Source of the DNA: Candidatus Omnitrophota bacterium
Lineage (GTDB): Bacteria; Omnitrophota; Gorgyraeia; Gygaellales; Profunditerraquicolaceae
NCBI GenBank assembly: GCA_049517335.1
Contig: JBEKSD010000028.1
Span: 1 to 11,512, forward strand
Length of the DNA: 11,512 nt
Reading direction: 5' to 3'
The first letter of the stretch is position 1; the number at the start of each line of letters is the position of its first letter. This document shows, in pieces, positions 4,215-11,512 of this stretch. The position numbers and the translations under genes were made by a program. The notes below the pieces were generated by a model. That model did no database searches. It was not told where the DNA came from and saw only the letters and a list, made by a program, of their open reading frames with translations.

Positions 4215-4316
4215 AGCTAACTTGAGAAGGAAAACCTATGGTATTTTTTAATACTCCTGACATGAAGCTAACTTGAGAAGGAAAACCTATGGTATTTTTT
4301 AATACTCCTGACATGA
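4215..4316 (+). repeat. Exact 51-bp tandem duplication spanning the kinase RBS and start codon
   Basis: agctaacttgagaaggaaaacctatggtattttttaatactcctgacatga occurs at 4215-4265 and 4266-4316. Confidence 0.95.
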
Positions 4317-6568
4317 ATATAAGCGGTTTCTTAGGGACTTCTCTTTCACTAGGGCTTTTAATAACTAGTATTTCATCTCTAATGCTGGGGATATTTGTCT
4401 TATCCAAAGGGTACAAAGAAAAATTAAAATTATTCTGGTTCATTTTGAGCTTTTTTGTGTGGGCTTGGGCGTTTTTTCTTTATCTCTGCTGTATAGCGAA
4501 AGATTATCATCGTGCCTTGTTGTTTGTTCGTATTGCCAACTACTCAGGTATTTTCATCAGTGCCTCCCTCGTCCTCTTCACAGAGGAATTCATAAGAAAA
4601 CCCAACAGGATAATTTCTAAAGTAAGTGCCTATGTAGCACTAATTATATTCATATTTAGTATTGTCTTTCCCCGCGCGTTTATTCCTTCTTTAAGCCCTA
4701 AAGTTTCATTTAAGATGTTTCCAGATAGCGGGATTATATATTATTTTATTACTTTATATTTCGTCTTTACCTGGAGCTATTCTATGTTTATTTTATATAA
4801 AAGCTTAAAGGCGGCTTATGGTATCAAAAGGGAGCAAGCCAAATACATCCTTATCAGTATGATAATTAGCGTGATCATAGCTTTAACCACCTTCCTACCG
4901 ATGTTTAATATTAATCTTTTCCCTTTTGGTAATTTATTTGTCTTCTTTTATGTTGTGCTTACAACTTTTGCTATTATTCGTTATCGCACTTTTGAAATCG
5001 ACACGGTCATCCACCGCACCCTGCTCTGGATGCTTACTTCCAGCTCAATCGTTGTGCCTGTCGGCATACTCTTATATTTTGCGCGTCCTTGGCTGACTCA
5101 ACTGAACTGGCTCCAGCTGACCTTAGTTACCACGGTGTTGTTTTACCTCTACCTGATTTATTACCAAGCCATGCAGCCCAAAATCGACCATCTCTTCAGG
5201 AGGCGTAAATACGATTATTACCTTGTCCTGGCTGAAATAGGCCAGAAAATAGGCACTGAGCTGGATATCAATGATGTGATCAGCCGCCTCTTCAAGGAAC
5301 TTAAAAAAATACTCTACATCCGCAATGGCCTGGTCCTGGTGCAGCAGTTGGGCCAAGAGGACTATACTGAGGCAGGCAGTATCGGTTATGACAGATTACA
5401 GGACGCTCCCCAGGATAGGCAGGGGGGAGTATTATATACCAGTAAGCTAAGCCAGTGGCTAAATAAGCATAAAAAAGCCTTAGAACGAGAACAGGTTGAA
5501 GTAAACCCCCAATATGAATCCATAAAGCAAGAAGCCCTCGCCTGGCTAAAGCAAAATATGGCAGAGCTGCTCATCCCTATTCTGATGGAAGACAAGATCA
5601 ACGGTCTCATCGGCATCGGTAAGAAAGAAAACCTCCGCTCCTACACTGCCAAGGATATAGAACTCTTGGAAAAAATGGGCAGGCAATTAGGCGTTACCAT
5701 AAACAACTCCCTGCATCACGAAGACATTATGGAAAAAGAAATACTGGAGTATCAGAAGCAGGCCCTGGAAGAGACTAATAAAGAATTAGATGACTTTACC
5801 TATACCGTCTCGCACGACTTAAAAGAGCCCTTAAGGGCTATAGATGCCTTCTCAAAGTATGTAATGGACGATTATCAGGACAAAATAGGCGAAGAAGGAA
5901 GGCATTATTTGGAACGTGTAAGGGCTAATGCGGAAAGGATGAAAAAACTCATCGAAGACCTGCTTGAGATATCCCGGATTAAGAGGAAAGGAAGCACCAT
6001 CGAAGAGGTGGATACAGAAGAGATTATGGCTGAAGTAAAGATGCGGCTTGAATACGCAATAAATCAAAAGTCCGTGGAGGTCATCATAAAAGATAAGCTT
6101 CCAAGGATATTCTGTGACCGCGTCAGGTTAACCGAGGTCTTCCTAAACCTGATTTCCAATGCCATCAAGTATAACAATAAGCCCAAGCCCATAATAGAAG
6201 TCGGTTATAACAATAAGGAGGACTTCCATGAATTTTACGTAAAAGATAATGGGATTGGAATACAAGAGGAATACTTTGATAAGATATTTGAGATCTTCCA
6301 GAGGTTAGGTAAAAGAGAGGATACCGAAGGTACCGGCGCGGGCCTTACAATAGTAAAGACAATAATCCAGATGCACAAAGGAAAAATCTGGCTTGAGTCT
6401 AAGCTAGGAGAAGGCACTACGTTCTATTTTACAGTTCCTAAAGCAAAGAGTACGATTCTAGGGAAGGATTTGACAGGTGATATCCTTTTAGAGAAGGCAC
6501 TTGGAAGAGAAGAACAACAGAGGATAAGCAGCTTAAACAAAGGAGGGCAAGATGATGGAAGAAACTAA
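4289..6568 (+). CDS. Sensor histidine kinase: N-terminal multi-TM (HisKA_7TM-like) region, GAF-like domain, HisKA, HATPase_c
   Basis: Multiple hydrophobic helices in the first ~290 aa; GAF-like LLIPI...GLIGIGKKE...YT..DIELL; H-box SHDLKEPLR, N-box NLISNAIKY, G1 DNGIGI, F-box FEIFQRL, G2 GTGAGL (Cph1/phytochrome-type kinase core). Confidence 0.95.
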   Translation: MVFFNTPDMNISGFLGTSLSLGLLITSISSLMLGIFVLSKGYKEKLKLFWFILSFFVWAWAFFLYLCCIAKDYHRALLFVRIANYSGIFISASLVLFTEEFIRKPNRIISKVSAYVALIIFIFSIVFPRAFIPSLSPKVSFKMFPDSGIIYYFITLYFVFTWSYSMFILYKSLKAAYGIKREQAKYILISMIISVIIALTTFLPMFNINLFPFGNLFVFFYVVLTTFAIIRYRTFEIDTVIHRTLLWMLTSSSIVVPVGILLYFARPWLTQLNWLQLTLVTTVLFYLYLIYYQAMQPKIDHLFRRRKYDYYLVLAEIGQKIGTELDINDVISRLFKELKKILYIRNGLVLVQQLGQEDYTEAGSIGYDRLQDAPQDRQGGVLYTSKLSQWLNKHKKALEREQVEVNPQYESIKQEALAWLKQNMAELLIPILMEDKINGLIGIGKKENLRSYTAKDIELLEKMGRQLGVTINNSLHHEDIMEKEILEYQKQALEETNKELDDFTYTVSHDLKEPLRAIDAFSKYVMDDYQDKIGEEGRHYLERVRANAERMKKLIEDLLEISRIKRKGSTIEEVDTEEIMAEVKMRLEYAINQKSVEVIIKDKLPRIFCDRVRLTEVFLNLISNAIKYNNKPKPIIEVGYNNKEDFHEFYVKDNGIGIQEEYFDKIFEIFQRLGKREDTEGTGAGLTIVKTIIQMHKGKIWLESKLGEGTTFYFTVPKAKSTILGKDLTGDILLEKALGREEQQRISSLNKGGQDDGRN

Positions 6569-7257: not shown

Positions 7258-7500
7258 ATGCGGGAACATTTAGGATTTTTAAAGGCGTCCAGCGCAGTGG
7301 TAAAAGTTACTGCCTGGATTTTTTTATTGCTTGGGCTTTTAGGGGGAGTTGCAATAGTTTTGGGTGTGGTGCCTGACCATCCCAGATGGATGGGTATTAT
7401 CATAATCGCGGTGTATGCCTTTTTGTTCTTTTTTCTTTACCTGATGGCTAAAATCGCGGACCTTCTAATCAAAATTATAAACGAAATTAAAAAGGAATAA
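7258..7500 (+). CDS. Small two-TM membrane protein, first gene of the Tad operon
   Basis: SD AAGGAGG; two hydrophobic helices; 18-nt gap to the next gene; no prepilin G|xxxxE motif. Confidence 0.75.
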   Translation: MREHLGFLKASSAVVKVTAWIFLLLGLLGGVAIVLGVVPDHPRWMGIIIIAVYAFLFFFLYLMAKIADLLIKIINEIKKE

Positions 7501-7518: not shown

Positions 7519-8427
7519 ATGAAACTTAAAATAACCGTTTTTTTATTGTTTTGTTTGTTTTCCGTTGGAATCCTTGGTTGCGACAAGATTAAGTCTGAGA
7601 TGTTCCAGAAAACCGTGGCCAAAAAATCCACTAAAGTTGTTACGATAAAAGGACCTGTTGTTGCCCGGATTAACAACGTCCCCGTAGGTTTAGAAGATTT
7701 AAATCAGGAAATCGATTCTTATAATGCTTCTGTACCGGCGGATAAACCGGAAGCAAAGATTACAACCAGAGAGCAGAAAATTAATTATCTTAAAAATGAA
7801 GTTATCCGCCGCATGCTTCTTGCCCAGCATGCAACCGATCAAGGGCTCGATAGGAACGAAGAGGTTGTGAGGGCGCTTGAAAAAACAAAGACCCAGCTTT
7901 TAGTGCTGGAATTAGTAAAACAGGAAACTGCAAATGTAGACGTTCCTTCAAAAGAGATAGAGGATTATTATAATACATATAAAGAACAACTAAAGAAACC
8001 TGAAGAAAGGCAGCTGCGCGAGATTTGTCTTTCGACTGAGCAAGAAGCCAAAGATATTGCAATCCAGCTTTTACAGGGCGGAGACTTTGCGACATTGGCT
8101 AAAGATCATTCAATAACGCCGAGTGCTAAAAACGGTGGAGACCTTGGTTTTATAGCAAAAGGAAAGAAATCGGCACAATTTGATCAGGTTGCTTTTTCCG
8201 GTGCACTGGAAGTCGGCGGGATCAGCAGTATTTTTAAGAGCCCGGACGGATATTGCGTATTAAAACTCGAGGCTAAAAAGGGAGGAGAACTGCGTTCGCT
8301 AACCGAGATGTGGGATGATATAAAACGCGGGTTGACATTCTTAAAGCAGCAGCAGAAAATTGAGCAATTGATAGGCACACTTTCCCGGGAAGCCAAAATA
8401 GAGGTTTATGAAGGGGAGATAAAATAA
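7519..8427 (+). CDS. Parvulin-type peptidyl-prolyl isomerase lipoprotein (PrsA/SurA-like foldase)
   Basis: Lipobox ILGC; SurA-N-like VVARINN...DLNQEI...LLAQHA...GLD; rotamase motif GGDFATLAKDHS...AKNGGDLGFI...FDQVAF...IS...KSPDGY. Confidence 0.9.
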   Translation: MKLKITVFLLFCLFSVGILGCDKIKSEMFQKTVAKKSTKVVTIKGPVVARINNVPVGLEDLNQEIDSYNASVPADKPEAKITTREQKINYLKNEVIRRMLLAQHATDQGLDRNEEVVRALEKTKTQLLVLELVKQETANVDVPSKEIEDYYNTYKEQLKKPEERQLREICLSTEQEAKDIAIQLLQGGDFATLAKDHSITPSAKNGGDLGFIAKGKKSAQFDQVAFSGALEVGGISSIFKSPDGYCVLKLEAKKGGELRSLTEMWDDIKRGLTFLKQQQKIEQLIGTLSREAKIEVYEGEIK

Positions 8428-9347
8428 TGCTACCACAAATAGGCAAGCCCAAGCTGATGATAATTGTCGGAGTCATTTTGATTTTGATGGCGACTTTCTT
8501 AGCTTATAACTGGCTGTCAGAGCAGAGAAGGATGGATGAAGAAAGAGCGGCAATAGCATATAAGAAAATGCAGGCTACTCAGATTACGGTCCTCGTGGCT
8601 AAAGAAGATATTCCCAAGGGCGTGGTAATAAACCCAACTTCCATCGGCACTAAAATCGTTCCGCAGGACTATGTCCAGCCTCAGGCAGTTACTTCTTTTG
8701 ACAGGATATCTGGTATGGTCACCACCGCCGATATTTCTCAAGGAGAACAGATATCCTTGACAAAACTCGTACCTGAAAAACAAGCTGGCGGCGGAGCATT
8801 GTCGGGTTTAACGCCGGCAGGGAAAAGAGCGGTTACTATTTTGGTAGACAATATTTCTTCAGTAGCCGGGTTAGTAAAACCCGGAGATTATGTTGATGTC
8901 ATGGCGGCTTTACAAGTACCTGTGCAGGTTACAGGAGGTAAACAGGAAGGCCAGTTGGGTATTCTGCCTTTATTCCAGAATGTTTTGGTTCTAGCCGTAG
9001 GGCAGAATTCTTCCACCGTTTCTTCCGGCCACGGAAGCCGTTATCAGAAAAAAGAAGATGAAAGTGGCAATACTCAAGAAAGTAGTAATCAGCTGATTAC
9101 TTTGGCTCTTGCGCCGCAGGAGGCAGGTTTAATTGCTTTTGTACAGGAGCAGGGCAAAATCCGTCTTATATTGCGCTCCCCGGCTGATGCAAAGGTTGAG
9201 CAAATACAACCGGCAACGTGGGAAACATTATTTAGATATTTAATGCCGCAAAACCAGGTGCAGGAAACTGTCAAACAGGAAAATCCCGATGATTACGTCG
9301 AGGTTTACCACGGATTGAATAAAGAACGGGTTCTTAAATTAAAATAA
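8427..9347 (+). CDS. cpaB: Flp pilus assembly protein CpaB (RcpC)
   Basis: N-terminal TM helix; SAF domain VLVAKEDIPKG...ADISQGEQI; RcpC motifs GKRAVTI.VD..SSVAGLVKPGDYVDV, QNVLVLAVG and ITLALAPQEA...GKIRLILR. The start overlaps the PPIase stop (TAATG). Confidence 0.93.
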   Translation: MLPQIGKPKLMIIVGVILILMATFLAYNWLSEQRRMDEERAAIAYKKMQATQITVLVAKEDIPKGVVINPTSIGTKIVPQDYVQPQAVTSFDRISGMVTTADISQGEQISLTKLVPEKQAGGGALSGLTPAGKRAVTILVDNISSVAGLVKPGDYVDVMAALQVPVQVTGGKQEGQLGILPLFQNVLVLAVGQNSSTVSSGHGSRYQKKEDESGNTQESSNQLITLALAPQEAGLIAFVQEQGKIRLILRSPADAKVEQIQPATWETLFRYLMPQNQVQETVKQENPDDYVEVYHGLNKERVLKLK

Positions 9348-9360
9348 ATTAAGGAGATAA

Positions 9361-10944
9361 ATGAAGAGACTATCCGGAATAGCTTTTTTAGTAATGTTAC
9401 TTTTGACGGTTGTTTCCTTTAAAGGTTACGCTTTGGATGATACCGGAGAAGAAGTAAAACTTTATATGGGAGAGGTCAAATTCGTCTTGGCGAGTAATCC
9501 AAATCGGGTGGCAATAGGCAATCCTGCAATTGCTGATGTTGCCAGCGTCAGCAGAACCGAAGTGGCCATTACTCCCAAATCCGTCGGTAACACTACTTTA
9601 GTAATATGGGATAATTTCGGTGAGCAGTCATATACGATAAGGGTCTTCGCGGAAAATACCACCGAAACAAAACGCCGGGTAGACGCGTTAATAGAAAAAC
9701 TTAATCTCCCTGAAGTTTATACCAAGGCAGACGATGACGAGGCAAAGGTTATTATATTGGGCAAGGTAAAGAACAAGGAGAGTAAAGAAAGAATAGCGAC
9801 TATTTTAGGCAAATTAAAAGATAAAACAGTTGACCTCACGTCTTTAAAAGAAGAAGAGACAGTTATCGAGATCGATACTCAGATATTGGAGCTTCAAAAA
9901 GGCGTAGAGCAGAACTTAGGGTTTCAGTGGCCGACGTCCCTTAGTCTTACTGAAAGTACGTCGAGCAGTGTCACTAGGGCATGGGGTAGTTTATTCAGGG
10001 TTTCACCAATTACAAACACCACCCCTTTCACGATGACTTTAAATACCCTCATACAGGAAAACAAGGTACGTGTTTTGAGTCGTCCCCGGGTTTCCTGTTT
10101 AAGCGGTAAAGAGGCGAAGCTTTTAGTCGGTGGTGAAGTTCCGGTTTTAAGCGGGACAGTTACTCCCGGAGCTGGTACTAGCGGAGGCGTGGCAGCAACT
10201 CCCGGCAACGTTGAATATAAGGAGTATGGTATCACGCTCAATATAAAGCCGCGCGTTGATGAGTTAGGGCGAATCCGATTGGGTTTAGATTTAACTGTCA
10301 GCGAACTCGGGCAGCAGATTTCTACTGCATATGCCCTTGCTTATACATTTACAAAGCGTAACGCTACCACTGAGCTTTATCTTGATGATGGGGAAACCGT
10401 TGCCATAGGCGGTTTAATCAAACACAAAACAGAGGAAGATTTAAGGAAGTTTCCTTGGTTGTCTGAAATCCCGGTGTTAGGGGCATTTTTTAGAAATAAG
10501 CATACTTTGGAAGGTGGAGGCCTCTCAAGTAACAGCGACACCGACTTATTTATTACACTCACCCCCCATATTGTAAGGCAGGAGATGAAACCGGAAGATA
10601 AAGACCGGACAATCAGAAATGTTACTCCGGTTGTATCTAGCGAAGAAACCATGGACCCGGTGACAAAATATGCCAGAATAATCCAGCAACGTATCTTGGA
10701 GAATTTGACATATCCGCAGAATGCAAGACAAGCAGGATTCCAGGGCACTACGCGCCTGCGCCTGAAGCTTTCTTATCAGGGCGAACTATTGGATGCAGAG
10801 GTTAAGAGCAGTTCCGGCTATAAAGTTCTCGACGATAACGCGGTAAATACCGCCAAAATGTCGCCCTCGTATCCTCCTTTCCCGCCCACAATAAAAGATA
10901 AGGAAATTTGGGTTGAAATTCCGGTAATTTATCAATTAGAATAA
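9361..10944 (+). CDS. cpaC: Tad secretin CpaC/RcpA with a fused C-terminal TonB domain
   Basis: Signal peptide; pilus-secretin N domain (RVAIGNPAIADV...GNTTLVIWD); BON-like segment; secretin core (RVLSRP..SGKEAKLLVGGEVP, YKEYGITLNIKP, DGETVAIGGLI, KFPWLSEIPVLGAFF, LFITLTPHIV); last ~95 aa TonB_C-like. Confidence 0.9.
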   Translation: MKRLSGIAFLVMLLLTVVSFKGYALDDTGEEVKLYMGEVKFVLASNPNRVAIGNPAIADVASVSRTEVAITPKSVGNTTLVIWDNFGEQSYTIRVFAENTTETKRRVDALIEKLNLPEVYTKADDDEAKVIILGKVKNKESKERIATILGKLKDKTVDLTSLKEEETVIEIDTQILELQKGVEQNLGFQWPTSLSLTESTSSSVTRAWGSLFRVSPITNTTPFTMTLNTLIQENKVRVLSRPRVSCLSGKEAKLLVGGEVPVLSGTVTPGAGTSGGVAATPGNVEYKEYGITLNIKPRVDELGRIRLGLDLTVSELGQQISTAYALAYTFTKRNATTELYLDDGETVAIGGLIKHKTEEDLRKFPWLSEIPVLGAFFRNKHTLEGGGLSSNSDTDLFITLTPHIVRQEMKPEDKDRTIRNVTPVVSSEETMDPVTKYARIIQQRILENLTYPQNARQAGFQGTTRLRLKLSYQGELLDAEVKSSSGYKVLDDNAVNTAKMSPSYPPFPPTIKDKEIWVEIPVIYQLE

Positions 10945-10948
10945 GACT

Positions 10949-11512
10949 ATGGCCAAGAAAATAGTAATATTCAGCACAAAAGGCGGTGTGGGTAAAACTT
11001 TTGTTGCCACTAACCTTGCTGTATCGCTTGTACAGAATCAGGGGCAGCGTGTATGCTTAATAGACCTTGATGTGCAGGTTCCTGGCGATATGGCTAGGAT
11101 GCTTAACCTCAATCCTTCCAAATCCATGTCCGATTTAATGGGCATGTTAAGAGCACATCCACAAACCGTTAAGAAATCCGATTTTATTATTAAGACGCAA
11201 TTCGGTATAGATTTTCTTCCTGGGGTTCTTAGGCCGCAGCAGGCGGGTAATTTTGAACCTGCGATTCTGAAAGAAGCCCTTAACTTTATCGACAAAGATT
11301 ATGATTATATCGTGATAGACGCCGGTAAAAGCTTAAGTAATATTTTCGTCTCCGTATTGAATCAGGCAAACCTTATTCTTCTTATCGCTACTCCCGATTT
11401 GGTGGCAATTTACCAGACAAAATGGATATTAGATACCCTGCAGTCTTTGGGCCTGCCGCTAGTGATGATCCAATGCGTTTTAAACCGGGCGGAGTCTGTT
11501 TCAGGGATCAGC
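10949..11512 (+). CDS. cpaE: TadZ/CpaE-like MinD/ParA-family ATPase, 3'-truncated by the window edge
   Basis: ATG10949, four nt after the secretin stop, open to the window end (188 codons): MAKKIVIFSTKGGVGKTFVATNLAVSL...RVCLIDLD...YDYIVIDAG...LLIATPDL...VLNRA. Position after cpaB-cpaC fits tadZ/cpaE. Not in the ORF track. Confidence 0.85.
   Translation, partial: MAKKIVIFSTKGGVGKTFVATNLAVSLVQNQGQRVCLIDLDVQVPGDMARMLNLNPSKSMSDLMGMLRAHPQTVKKSDFIIKTQFGIDFLPGVLRPQQAGNFEPAILKEALNFIDKDYDYIVIDAGKSLSNIFVSVLNQANLILLIATPDLVAIYQTKWILDTLQSLGLPLVMIQCVLNRAESVSGIS

What the first reader, a model, noticed from the sequence alone, without database searches (positions are those of the whole stretch)
9361..10944. 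Tad secretin fused to a TonB C-terminal domain
Seen: after the secretin core ends (LFITLTPHIV) and a ~25-aa linker, the same frame continues from ~10654 with YARIIQQRILENLTYPQNARQAGFQGTTRLRLKLSYQGELLDAEVKSSSGYKVLDDNAVNTAKMSPSYPPFP...IWVEIPVIYQLE. That is the TonB_C pattern (YP..A...G.QG...L.....G......V..SSG...LD..A...). Known: TonB_C normally ends an inner-membrane-anchored, ExbBD-energised protein and pairs with TonB boxes, while secretin C-termini often carry pilotin-binding segments. Inference: an oligomeric secretin would display a ring of TonB_C domains with no proton-motive-force anchor of their own. They could recruit TonB-dependent transporters to the pilus pore, gate the pore, bind peptidoglycan, or dock TonB-box-like substrates, linking a Tad machine to uptake or host/prey interaction. 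I know of no functional characterisation of such a fusion.
Basis: partly seen in the sequence, partly recalled or inferred. Interest (0 to 1): 0.8.

Follow-up and report, generated by a model that had tools for sequence, protein, structure and literature searches.

The report
Tad pilus secretin carrying a TonB tail
The outer-membrane pore protein of a Tad pilus machine in an uncultured Omnitrophota bacterium ends in a complete TonB-type docking domain, a conserved but so far undiscussed arrangement that may help place or anchor the pore in the cell envelope.

Summary
ORF 9361-10944 (+, 527 aa) is one protein: signal peptide, Tad-type N-domain, secretin core, variable linker, full TonB_C domain (Pfam 59 bits against a cut-off of 24.6; confident AlphaFold fold; TM 0.74-0.79 to solved TonB C-terminal domains). 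It is no assembly artefact: 120 of 120 listed homologues share the architecture, 39 of 201 Omnitrophota genomes sampled (all in the window's class) match full-length, and a contig from an independent sample bridges the junction. The operon (lipoprotein PPIase, CpaB, CpaC::TonB_C, TadZ::CpaF) is the same in 24 of 24 loci. A second secretin type (Gsp/PilQ-like) in the class also carries a TonB-type tail (7 of 7 examined).

The claim that this is the genome's only TonB_C does not hold: a divergent membrane-anchored TonB lies beside the single TonB-dependent transporter.

The domain sits where P. aeruginosa RcpA carries its pilotin-binding tail. My best reading is an unpowered periplasmic docking or anchoring module; this is inferred and the partner is unknown. 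Recruiting TonB-dependent transporters is weakened but not excluded. The papers I searched do not discuss the fusion. It is a new variant of a known kind, of moderate to high interest.

The parts
9361..10944 (+). Whole gene: CpaC/RcpA-type Tad secretin with C-terminal TonB_C domain, 527 aa, stop codon included
   Evidence: ORF; three Pfam domains in one protein; 120 of 120 listed homologues have the same three domains
9361..9432 (+). Probable Sec signal peptide (about residues 1-24); no lipobox cysteine and no TonB-type membrane anchor
   Evidence: Sequence (hydrophobic stretch ending ...FKGYA); models residues 2-24 as one helix. The cleavage site was judged by eye and no predictor was run
9448..9645 (+). 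Tad-type N-domain (T2SS-T3SS_pil_N, residues 30-95), beta-sandwich
   Evidence: 2.4e-14; Foldseek matches to VirB9 N-terminal domains 7o3t_B TMt 0.54 and 8rt6_v TMt 0.58, as PMC10499894 reports for the RcpA N-domain
9658..9900 (+). Alpha/beta domain between N-domain and barrel (about residues 100-180); no Pfam match
   Evidence: helices 100-114 and 139-155, strands 119-136 and 156-179, block pLDDT 76-90. Calling it a secretin ring-building domain is my inference
10048..10578 (+). Secretin core (residues 230-406)
   Evidence: 6.6e-39; same coordinates; secretin structures rank first, RcpA 8odn_A at E 3.1e-08
10579..10668 (+). Flexible linker (residues 407-436), variable in sequence and length
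   Evidence: high column entropy; 29-50 residues between the P402 and Y437 columns in 85 sequences, median 33; pLDDT under 50 for residues 409-427
10669..10941 (+). TonB-type C-terminal domain with its preceding helix (residues 437-527; Pfam TonB_C 448-526 = bases 10702-10938)
   Evidence: Invariant in 85 sequences: Y437, Y451, P452, G462, G474, S485, L490, Y504, P505, F507, P521
7519..8427 (+). Operon partner: lipoprotein SurA_N + parvulin PPIase, 302 aa
   Evidence: Rotamase 7.7e-16; SurA_N_3 0.0013, below cut-off; same position in 24 of 24 loci; lipobox cysteine in 24 of 24
8427..9347 (+). Operon partner: CpaB/RcpC, 306 aa
   Evidence: RcpC 1.4e-24, SAF 6.7e-08; TIGR03177 pilus_cpaB 6.6e-47, 159.9 bits vs cut-off 71; 24 of 24 loci
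10949..11512 (+). Operon partner: TadZ/CpaE-like ParA-type ATPase, cut by the contig end; in relatives it is the N-terminal half of a TadZ::CpaF fusion of 712-749 aa
   Evidence: AAA_31 1.8e-19, ParA 7.2e-15; L022 719-aa protein: ParA-type 2-241 plus T2SSE 365-658, 1.3e-63; 23 of 23 relatives
7258..7500 (+). 80-aa membrane protein just upstream; membership of the operon uncertain
   Evidence: no Pfam match; homologue in the same position in 2 of 23 relatives, L022 and L037

Best explanation
This is the outer-membrane secretin (CpaC/RcpA type) of a Tad/Flp pilus machine of an Omnitrophota bacterium. In P. aeruginosa RcpA the C-terminus is a short unstructured tail that binds the pilotin TadD. 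Here that position holds a variable linker (29-50 residues among 85 homologues) and a complete TonB-type C-terminal domain. The protein is exported by a signal peptide and has no inner-membrane anchor, so it is not a TonB. By homology with RcpA (13- or 14-mers), the assembled pore would carry a ring of tethered TonB_C domains in the periplasm, outside the barrel and just under the outer membrane. I think these most likely act as an unpowered docking module. As TonB and TolA domains do, they would catch an extended strand of an envelope partner by beta-strand addition, and so help localise, assemble or anchor the secretin. This would be built-in targeting or anchoring in a lineage where a LolA-type lipoprotein route for a pilotin is not detectable. 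Shown: domain identities, fold, conservation, operon, and presence of TonB-type tails on two secretin types. Inferred: periplasmic position, ring, docking role. Unknown: the partner.
For: Identity: (see observation check). Tad context: CpaB upstream and TadZ downstream. In relative L022: TadZ::CpaF, DUF192 and several small ORFs with a GQSTxEY motif that I read as Flp-like, with no significant Pfam support. Conservation: 120 of 120 listed homologues have the three domains. Of 131 class genomes, 41 have a CpaC match at E <= 1e-30; 35 of the 41 align to query residue 524 or beyond. Five more (G079, G129, G139, G234, G225) have a TonB_C or TonB_2 match close by on the same contig and strand with the same open-frame length, and G079, G129 and G139 match the full-length profile. 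One (G207) shows none. With the full-length profile, 39 of 201 phylum genomes match through position 520 or beyond, all within the window's class (96 of the 201). The TonB_C part is as conserved as the secretin core, including the last strand (W517, P521, Y524, Q525, L526 at 91-100% in 85 sequences), which is the edge strand that, from memory, pairs with the TonB box in TonB. Position: the RcpA C-terminal tail binds TadD and is essential for secretin assembly (PMC10499894, passages read); RcpA 8odn_A is a Foldseek match of the model. A role general to secretins: 7 of 7 examined long frames with a TonB_2 match are N0/STN + Secretin_N + Secretin + TonB_2/TonB_C proteins. In the domain tree they fall on the other side of a 100/97 split from the Tad-type domains, each side with different canonical TonBs. 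The domain is not needed as the cell's TonB: the own genome has a 233-aa membrane-anchored TonB next to its transporter. Binding by beta-strand addition is the documented mode for TonB and TolA C-terminal domains (PMC12204202, passage read). LolA (PF03548) was found in 0 of 37 fusion-bearing genomes and not in the own genome; LolB was not found in the own genome.
Against: No partner was identified, so the docking role rests on analogy. The LolA result is weak: the model rings in only 5 of 14 control genomes and, among the diderm controls, misses Bacteroides, Thermus, Synechococcus and Thermotoga. I did not test whether Omnitrophota classes without the fusion also lack it. I had no specific model for TadD-like pilotins, so their absence is not shown. 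By Pfam score the secretin-borne domain is the most canonical TonB_C in the genome (59 bits against 15.7 bits for the true TonB). Transporters are present in 31 of 37 fusion genomes, so binding of real TonB boxes remains possible. The AU test does not reject a single origin of all secretin-fused domains (p 0.149), so convergence is not established. In other classes, 6 of 8 CpaC-type secretins examined have Pfam-blank tails (K/E/S/A-rich where I saw their ends) instead of a TonB_C; this shows the position tolerates other appendages but says nothing about their role.
Confidence: 0.45

Rival explanations
1. Transporter recruitment: the ring of TonB_C domains binds TonB boxes of TonB-dependent transporters and holds them next to the pilus pore, linking uptake to the Tad machine or competing with the real TonB.
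For: The domain is a canonical TonB_C with a conserved last strand. It would sit at the height of transporter TonB boxes (inference from PMC10499894). 31 of 37 fusion genomes have 1-2 Plug-domain proteins, and the own genome has one.
Against: No Plug match in 6 of 37 fusion genomes that are 90-95% complete. Transporters have their own TonB encoded directly downstream in the own genome and at least 8 relatives. The same kind of tail occurs on a second secretin type not tied to Tad. A tether without a motor cannot energise uptake.
Confidence: 0.12
2. Peptidoglycan or cell-wall anchoring: the TonB_C domains bind the sacculus and fix the secretin, as AMIN domains or TsaP do for PilQ (recalled, not read here).
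For: Tad secretins lack AMIN domains: Pfam finds none here. A ring of tethered domains on linkers of 29-50 residues could reach the wall (inference). Its presence on two secretin types fits a general anchoring need. That TonB C-terminal domains associate with peptidoglycan is something I recall from older literature; I did not verify it here.
Against: No tool result supports peptidoglycan binding by this domain. In the abstract of the Ton-motor preprint seen in the listing, and in a passage of PMC11761067 read, it is ExbD whose link to peptidoglycan is studied or described; the preprint itself was not read.
Confidence: 0.15
3. Powered gating, an inverted Ton system: an inner-membrane, ExbBD-coupled protein reaches the secretin-borne TonB_C domain, so that proton-motive force opens or remodels the pore.
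For: The genome has two ExbB/ExbD pairs. One (C12:49240-50281) is followed by a conserved 202-aa membrane protein with an invariant S-x3-H in its transmembrane helix. This resembles the SHLS motor-binding motif (PMC12204202), and the protein has no detectable TonB_C. The other pair (C8) has no TonB- or TolA-like neighbour that I could see.
Against: Nothing links these genes to the Tad operon: they are on other contigs and there is no co-occurrence test. The 202-aa protein may simply be a divergent TonB: its low-confidence model (mean pLDDT 58) has strand, strand, helix, strand at the C-terminus. No precedent is known to me.
Confidence: 0.08
4. Artefact: mis-assembly or a frame-fusing sequencing error joined a secretin gene to a separate TonB gene.
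For: None found. The window is a short contig (11,512 bases) of a metagenome-assembled genome in 31 contigs.
Against: The same single ORF occurs in 24 of 24 loci from different genomes and in 120 of 120 listed database homologues. A contig from an independent sample bridges the junction with 0 differences.
Confidence: 0.01

Closest known systems
RcpA-TadD secretin-pilotin complex of the Pseudomonas aeruginosa Tad system (PDB 8odn; PMC10499894)
   Same: Same secretin family: pil_N/VirB9-like N-domain plus secretin core. Same operon partners RcpC/CpaB and TadZ. The C-terminus is the place where the assembly partner binds.
   Different: RcpA ends in a short random-coil tail whose last four residues bind the TPR lipoprotein TadD. 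Here the tail is a linker plus a folded TonB_C domain of about 90 residues, and I saw no TadD-like gene in the three 20-kb loci whose ORFs I listed (only some of those genes were scanned against Pfam).
TonB C-terminal domain of the Ton system (e.g. Helicobacter pylori TonB-CTD 6sly/5lw8; Neisseria TonB in 9dc4)
   Same: Same domain family and fold, aligned from the preceding helix to the last strand, including the YP motif.
   Different: TonB is anchored in the inner membrane by an SHLS helix, spans the periplasm and is driven by ExbBD (PMC12204202). Here the domain hangs from an outer-membrane pore with no motor contact of its own.
TonB-CTD-like domains of the Myxococcus gliding proteins GltG and GltJ (PMC11761067)
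   Same: TonB-CTD-like domains used outside nutrient uptake as connecting modules within a large envelope machine (passages read).
   Different: GltG and GltJ are inner-membrane proteins linked to a TolQR-like motor, and their contacts are AlphaFold predictions. The protein here is an outer-membrane secretin.
STN domain (Pfam PF07660, 'Secretin and TonB N terminus short domain')
   Same: A known module shared between secretins and the Ton world. The genome's two other secretins carry it.
   Different: STN is an N-terminal domain shared with TonB-dependent receptors, not the TonB C-terminal domain, and it is absent from the Tad secretin here.
Gsp/PilQ-type secretins with TonB_2/TonB_C tails in the same Omnitrophota class (found here)
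   Same: A C-terminal TonB-type domain after the secretin core, with a similar PFPxFP...ISY ending.
   Different: Different secretin family (N0/STN + Secretin_N). Their TonB domains group with a different set of canonical TonBs in the tree.

Membership tests
Tad secretin (CpaC/RcpA) | Secretin core domain (PF00263) | tested here: met
   6.6e-39, 133.6 bits vs cut-off 27.5; secretin structures rank first, RcpA 8odn_A at E 3.1e-08
Tad secretin (CpaC/RcpA) | Tad-type N-domain (PF13629, VirB9-like) instead of N0/STN/Secretin_N | tested here: met
   2.4e-14, with no Secretin_N or STN match; VirB9 N-terminal domain matches
Tad secretin (CpaC/RcpA) | Encoded with CpaB/RcpC, TadZ/CpaE, CpaF/TadA and Flp pilins | tested here: met
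   CpaB, TadZ in the window; TadZ::CpaF in L022; 24 of 24 loci. Flp-like small ORFs were identified by motif only. TadB/TadC were not found in the stretches examined
Tad secretin (CpaC/RcpA) | Short C-terminal tail that binds the pilotin TadD | tested here: not met
   The C-terminus is a folded TonB_C domain. This departs from the P. aeruginosa model, but I do not know that it defines the whole family
Tad secretin (CpaC/RcpA) | Forms a 13-14-mer pore in the outer membrane | not testable with these tools
   Inferred from homology to RcpA (PMC10499894)
TonB_C domain (PF03544) | Profile match above the curated cut-off over the whole domain | tested here: met
   59.1 bits vs 24.6, model positions 2-79 of 79; TIGR01352 48.4 bits vs 27.1
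TonB_C domain (PF03544) | Strand, strand, helix, strand fold like solved TonB C-terminal domains | tested here: met
   block pLDDT 85-94; TMt 0.74-0.79; 10 PDB matches, all TonB, TonB2 or HasB
TonB_C domain (PF03544) | Binds a partner strand (TonB box) by beta-strand addition | not testable with these tools
   Only conservation of the last strand was seen
TonB protein (energy transducer; NCBI's name for homologues is 'TonB family protein') | N-terminal inner-membrane helix with the SHLS motif that binds ExbB/ExbD | tested here: not met
   The N-terminus is a signal peptide followed by secretin domains; motif as described in PMC12204202
TonB protein (energy transducer; NCBI's name for homologues is 'TonB family protein') | Periplasm-spanning domain II between the membrane anchor and the C-terminal domain | tested here: not met
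   The 31-residue linker joins the domain to the secretin core, not to a membrane helix
TonB protein (energy transducer; NCBI's name for homologues is 'TonB family protein') | Encoded with ExbB/ExbD or next to a TonB-dependent transporter | tested here: not met
   Not in the window. ExbBD pairs are on contigs C8 and C12 and the transporter on C2

The most novel reading that the evidence does not exclude
An inverted Ton arrangement. The force-receiving or strand-catching TonB domain is carried by the outer-membrane pore itself, as a ring of 13-14 copies, on two different secretin families of Omnitrophota, possibly through independent fusions. The ring would couple the pore to an inner-membrane ExbBD-type motor through a TonB-like anchor protein that lacks a recognisable C-terminal domain, or it would capture TonB-box-bearing proteins. 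Either way, opening of the pilus or secretion pore, or uptake through it, would be tied to the proton-motive force during host or prey contact.
Probability: 0.08. Interest if true: 0.85.

Novelty: new variant of a known kind. Interest (0 to 1): 0.6.

Why it matters
Secretins and the Ton system are two of the best-studied envelope machines, and they are normally separate. Secretins depend on pilotins or wall-binding accessories, while TonB domains belong to inner-membrane force transducers. Here a TonB domain is wired permanently to the outer-membrane pore. This holds across a whole class of Omnitrophota, a phylum of mostly ultra-small, probably host-dependent bacteria whose Tad pili are discussed as attachment or predation tools (PMC10066038, passages read). 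It also occurs on a second secretin family. If the domain is a built-in targeting or anchoring device, it shows a new solution to secretin assembly. If it binds TonB boxes or a motor, it would be a new coupling between a pilus pore and uptake or energy. Either way it gives a defined, small, well-folded domain that can be tested in vitro. It also shows that NCBI's name for these proteins ('TonB family protein') is misleading.

Tried and rejected
Single-sequence search of the C-terminal 125 residues against PDB sequences: 0 matches at E <= 0.01. The profile search succeeded.

'Only TonB_C in the genome': searches (PF03544; PF13103) find only the secretin in the own genome. I rejected the conclusion. 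A 233-aa ORF next to the transporter scores only 0.0074 and 0.02 in Pfam, but 4.7e-19 over the whole domain with an HMM built from the fused domains.

The 202-aa ORF after ExbD as a TonB: no Pfam match at E <= 1; hhalign against the fused-domain alignment gives probability 0.2%; not detected by the lineage HMM at E <= 10; AlphaFold model of low confidence (mean pLDDT 58), so I ran no fold search on it. Left open.

Independent origin of the two fusion types: the best tree separates them, but the AU test does not reject one clade (p 0.149). The group was named after I had seen the tree. Only 96 columns were used, and four rows have long branches (TonB_L082, Gsp_L071, Tad_L056, Gsp_L073).

Complex prediction with the linker plus TonB_C (residues 403-527) as partner against the mature PPIase and periplasmic CpaB: verdict 'no answer', score 0.00, controls not run. 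This is no evidence for or against binding.

RNA: no RNA holder listed. Runs X3 to X16 hold small shares. Of those only X3 and X4 were laid, and they cover 12 and 9 of 30 bins; parts without cover say nothing.

The PPIase as an outer-membrane pilotin: 20 of 24 have D or E directly after the lipid-modified cysteine. In E. coli (recalled) that signals inner-membrane retention, so I do not put this idea forward; the rule may not hold in this phylum.

TPR-like look of the C-terminal part of the 1016-1068-aa f33 proteins: seen by eye only, with no Pfam TPR match at E <= 0.01.

Not done: no TadD-specific model was available; LolA was not searched in the classes without the fusion; the wider range outside Omnitrophota was not searched systematically. 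One homologue cluster is labelled Nitrospirota by NCBI (P0068), and the Atlas taxa rest on few members. The search of protein representatives, the search for related loci and the second Atlas call were not used. Supplementary files of papers were not seen; those of PMC10066038 (Tad/RcpA phylogenies) and PMC12204202 could mention the architecture.
Full report
WHAT IS THERE. The window is a whole 11,512-base contig (C28) of a 1.45-Mb genome in 31 contigs, 92% complete. The ORF listing gives one open frame at 9361-10944 (+), 527 aa. Pfam finds three domains above their curated cut-offs in this one protein: T2SS-T3SS_pil_N (residues 30-95, 2.4e-14), Secretin (230-406, 6.6e-39) and TonB_C (448-526, 5.8e-16, 59.1 bits against 24.6, model positions 2-79 of 79). 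TonB_2 scores below its cut-off. NCBIfam agrees: tonB_Cterm at 8.9e-13, and only partial matches to GspD, PilQ and other secretin models.

FOLD. I aligned 85 homologues (A1) and ran AlphaFold2 on the alignment. Mean pLDDT is 75.5. The N-domain, the alpha/beta domain, the barrel strands and residues 431-527 are confident (10-residue block means of 85-94 for 431-527). Residues 409-427 fall below 50. The C-terminal part is helix 433-448, helix 453-458, strand 462-471, strand 476-483, helix 488-500, strand 515-524. Foldseek against the PDB ranks secretins first, including RcpA (8odn_A, E 3.1e-08). It then lists VirB9 N-terminal domains for the N-domain, and TonB C-terminal domains (6sly TMt 0.74; 5lw8 0.73; 9dc4_T 0.79 with rmsd 1.3 over 80 columns) and TolA domain III (3qdp 0.65) for the tail. 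The single tail sequence matched no PDB chain at E <= 0.01. A profile of nine tails (A2) matched 10 distinct PDB sequences, all TonB, TonB2 or HasB C-terminal domains. The best was H. pylori TonB at 5.8e-12, aligned from the preceding helix to the last strand.

NOT AN ARTEFACT, AND CONSERVED. Of 660 database proteins with E <= 1e-5 among 8000 scored candidates, the best 120 are listed. All 120 (50-100% identity, 514-552 aa) carry PF03544 + PF13629 + PF00263. Where sources give names, these are 'TonB family protein' (NCBI) or 'pilus assembly protein CpaC' (JGI); the NCBI names give Candidatus Omnitrophica/Omnitrophota as the organism, except one labelled Nitrospirota.

In 131 genomes of the window's class, 41 have a match at E <= 1e-30. 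Of these, 35 align through query residue 524 or beyond, at identities down to 26%. Of the other six, G079, G129 and G139 match the full-length profile. G234 and G225 have a TonB_2 match close by on the same contig and strand with the same open-frame length. G207 shows none.

With the full-length profile A6 over 201 genomes of the phylum, 39 match through position 520 or beyond, and all 39 lie in the window's class (96 of the 201). They comprise the own genome, 15 of 17 from the same family, the one same-order genome, and 22 of 77 others. G167 has a longer linker.

The ESM Atlas reports five hits with this domain set and lists three clusters of 73-85 members, commonest phylum Omnitrophota. Contigs of public runs settle the junction. 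X1, which may be the source, has one 2790-base contig over the whole gene. X2, from another sample and study, has a 157-base contig over 10534-10690 with no difference.

CONTEXT. Upstream lie CpaB/RcpC (8427-9347; TIGR03177 at 6.6e-47) and a PpiC-type PPIase with a SurA-like N-terminal part (7519-8427). Downstream lies a ParA-type TadZ, cut by the contig end. In 23 relatives chosen from the hits, plus the window, the order PPIase, CpaB, CpaC::TonB_C, TadZ is the same in 24 of 24 loci, and one ORF matches both the secretin seed and the TonB_C seed. In relatives the TadZ gene is a fusion of 712-749 aa with a CpaF-type ATPase (T2SSE 1.3e-63 in L022), followed by a DUF192 protein and several small ORFs with a GQSTxEY motif that I read as Flp-like pilins. 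All 24 PPIases begin with a signal peptide and a lipobox cysteine, and 20 of 24 have D or E next.

CONSERVATION WITHIN THE TAIL. The stretch between P402 and Y437 varies in sequence and in length (29-50 residues, median 33). The domain itself is as conserved as the secretin core. Y437, Y451, P452, G462, G474, S485, L490, Y504, P505, F507 and P521 are invariant in 85 sequences, and the last strand (W517, P521, Y524, Q525, L526) is 91-100% conserved.

THE REST OF THE TON WORLD IN THIS GENOME. PF03544 and PF13103 find only the secretin, which at first suggested that the cell has no other TonB. That is wrong. Directly downstream of the only TonB-dependent transporter (C2:142418-144502, minus strand) lies a 233-aa ORF with an N-terminal membrane helix and a C-terminus ending in a PFPxFP...ISF pattern. 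Pfam scores it below threshold (0.0074 and 0.02). An HMM built from the secretin-fused domains scores it at 4.7e-19 over the whole domain. The same transporter-then-TonB arrangement can be read from the coordinates in G143, G061, G149, G095, G153, G123, G250 and G257.

There are also two ExbB/ExbD pairs. The one on C12 is followed by a 202-aa membrane protein, found in 15 of the 21 genomes searched in this family (the window's own included), with an invariant S-x3-H in its helix. It has no detectable TonB_C and only a low-confidence model.

A SECOND FUSED SECRETIN TYPE. The Atlas pointed to Secretin_N-type secretins of Omnitrophota in which about 30% of cluster members have a TonB_2 match, at a score of 0.85, which is a lead only. 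In the class, many TonB_2 matches lie in frames of 600-780 aa. All 7 that I fetched are N0/STN + Secretin_N + Secretin + TonB_2/TonB_C proteins, and one such match lies in another class (G003). The window's own two other secretins (524 and 517 aa) lack the tail.

I built a tree of 49 domains over 96 columns: 24 Tad-fused, 7 Gsp-fused and 18 canonical. A 100/97 split places the Gsp-fused clade (97/94) among 14 canonical TonBs, including the own genome's. The Tad-fused domains fall with 4 other canonical TonBs. Forcing all fused domains into one clade costs 12.3 log-likelihood units, but the AU test gives p 0.149. Two independent fusions are therefore suggested, not shown.

OTHER CLASSES. CpaC-type matches outside the class stop at about profile position 405-460, in frames of 557-1068 aa. 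Of 8 examined, 6 have Pfam-blank tails, and the ends printed are rich in K, E, S and A. The other 2, both from family f33, have two TonB_C stretches followed by a long further region. One in-class protein of 796 aa (G183) also has two TonB_C matches in one frame.

WHAT IT PROBABLY DOES. In P. aeruginosa RcpA the C-terminal tail is random coil. Its last four residues bind the lipoprotein pilotin TadD; without them no secretin forms, and the complex has C13 or C14 symmetry (PMC10499894, abstract and passages read). RcpC/CpaB binds the N-domain (PMC12307814, passages read). By homology, the tail of the window protein lies in the periplasm on the outside of the barrel, so the pore would carry 13-14 tethered TonB domains. 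TonB and TolA C-terminal domains bind their targets by beta-strand addition (PMC12204202, passage read). TonB-CTD-like domains also serve as connectors in the Myxococcus gliding machine, according to AlphaFold models (PMC11761067, passages read).

I therefore read the tail as an unpowered docking or anchoring module that takes the place of the pilotin-binding tail. Three points support this. The tail occurs on two secretin families. The cell has its own TonB for its transporter. And LolA was not detected in 0 of 37 fusion genomes or in the own genome; this last point is weak, because the model rings in only 5 of 14 controls.

Against the reading: no partner is known, the domain is a very canonical TonB_C, and transporters are present in 31 of 37 fusion genomes. 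Rivals are transporter recruitment, wall anchoring, and a powered inverted Ton arrangement. None is excluded.

LITERATURE. Searches for Omnitrophota/secretin/TonB, Omnitrophota/Tad/pili and secretin/'TonB C-terminal domain'/fused gave no paper on this fusion. Term searches found 'TonB' and 'secretin' 0 times in PMC10066038, which discusses Tad and RcpA in Omnitrophota. They found 'secretin' and 'Omnitrophota' 0 times in the TonB/TolA evolution paper PMC12204202. A 2026 preprint on Omnitrophota genomes mentions two flanking genes with TonB C-terminal domain content, without linking them to secretins.

VERDICT. The thing is a real, conserved and unusual domain architecture: a new variant of a known kind. 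Its mechanism is inferred and can be tested directly with a small soluble domain.

Noticed in passing
window 7519-8427 (+); L022 7205-8158; L023 6385-7353; L024 6930-7955 and 20 further loci: A lipoprotein PPIase (SurA-like N-terminal part plus parvulin domain) heads the Tad operon in 24 of 24 loci. All have a lipobox cysteine, and 20 of 24 have D or E right after it. A dedicated periplasmic foldase in a Tad operon is unusual as far as I know.
   Followed up: partly
window 10949-11512 (+, cut by contig end); L022 10737-12896: TadZ (ParA-type) and CpaF (T2SSE ATPase) are fused into one protein of 712-749 aa in 23 of 23 relatives. The window holds only the TadZ part because the contig ends.
   Followed up: partly
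L067-L073 (genomes G101, G057, G230, G212, G208, G065, G201): A second secretin type (N0/STN + Secretin_N + Secretin, 620-776 aa) also ends in a TonB_2/TonB_C domain: 7 of 7 examined. Many more frames of 600-780 aa with TonB_2 matches are listed.
   Followed up: partly
L099 394-3597 (-) and L104 509-3556 (-); G183:C11 frame of 796 aa: Tad-type secretins of 1016-1068 aa in another family (f33) have two TonB_C stretches after the secretin core plus a long further C-terminal region without a Pfam match. One in-class protein has two TonB_C matches in one frame.
   Followed up: partly
own genome C2:141611-142312 (-), next to C2:142418-144502 (-): The genome's real membrane-anchored TonB (233 aa) sits directly after its only TonB-dependent transporter. 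Pfam misses it at its cut-offs (0.0074 and 0.02), but a lineage-specific HMM scores it at 4.7e-19. Omnitrophota TonBs may be under-annotated.
   Followed up: yes
own genome C12:49240-50889 (+) (L003 1279-2925): An ExbB and ExbD pair is followed by a 202-aa membrane protein with an invariant S-x3-H in its helix and a conserved C-terminal block. It has no Pfam match at E <= 1 and was found in 15 of the 21 genomes searched in this family, the own genome included. The model is low-confidence, with strand, strand, helix, strand at the C-terminus. It may be a very divergent TonB/TolA-like transducer.
   Followed up: partly
L097, L098, L100-L103 (genomes of other Omnitrophota classes): Tad-type secretins of other classes carry C-terminal tails of roughly 130-365 residues beyond the secretin domain with no Pfam match (6 of 8 examined). 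The ends printed are rich in K, E, S and A.
   Followed up: no
own genome and 37 fusion-bearing genomes: LolA (PF03548) was not detected in the own genome or in any of 37 relatives, two of them single-contig genomes. LolB was not detected in the own genome. The model misses several diderm controls, so this is a lead only.
   Followed up: partly
window 7258-7500 (+): An 80-aa membrane protein without a Pfam match lies just upstream of the PPIase. It has a homologue in the same position in L022 and L037 only.
   Followed up: no
window 4289-6568 (+): A 759-aa histidine kinase with a 7TM sensor region (HisKA_7TM, HisKA and HATPase_c above their cut-offs; GAF matches below theirs) lies about 700 bases upstream of the Tad genes. 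Whether it regulates them was not examined.
   Followed up: no
L022 16228-17646; L024 15120-18946: Arrays of 3 to 7 small ORFs with a GQSTxEY-type N-terminal motif lie downstream of the Tad genes. I read them as Flp-like pilins. Pfam gives only a weak DUF4244 match for the one I scanned.
   Followed up: no
runs X1-X4 laid on window 9361-10944: Near-identical DNA (0 differences in the pieces laid) occurs in contigs of four runs labelled peat metagenome, from four different studies. X1 may be the source sample.
   Followed up: partly
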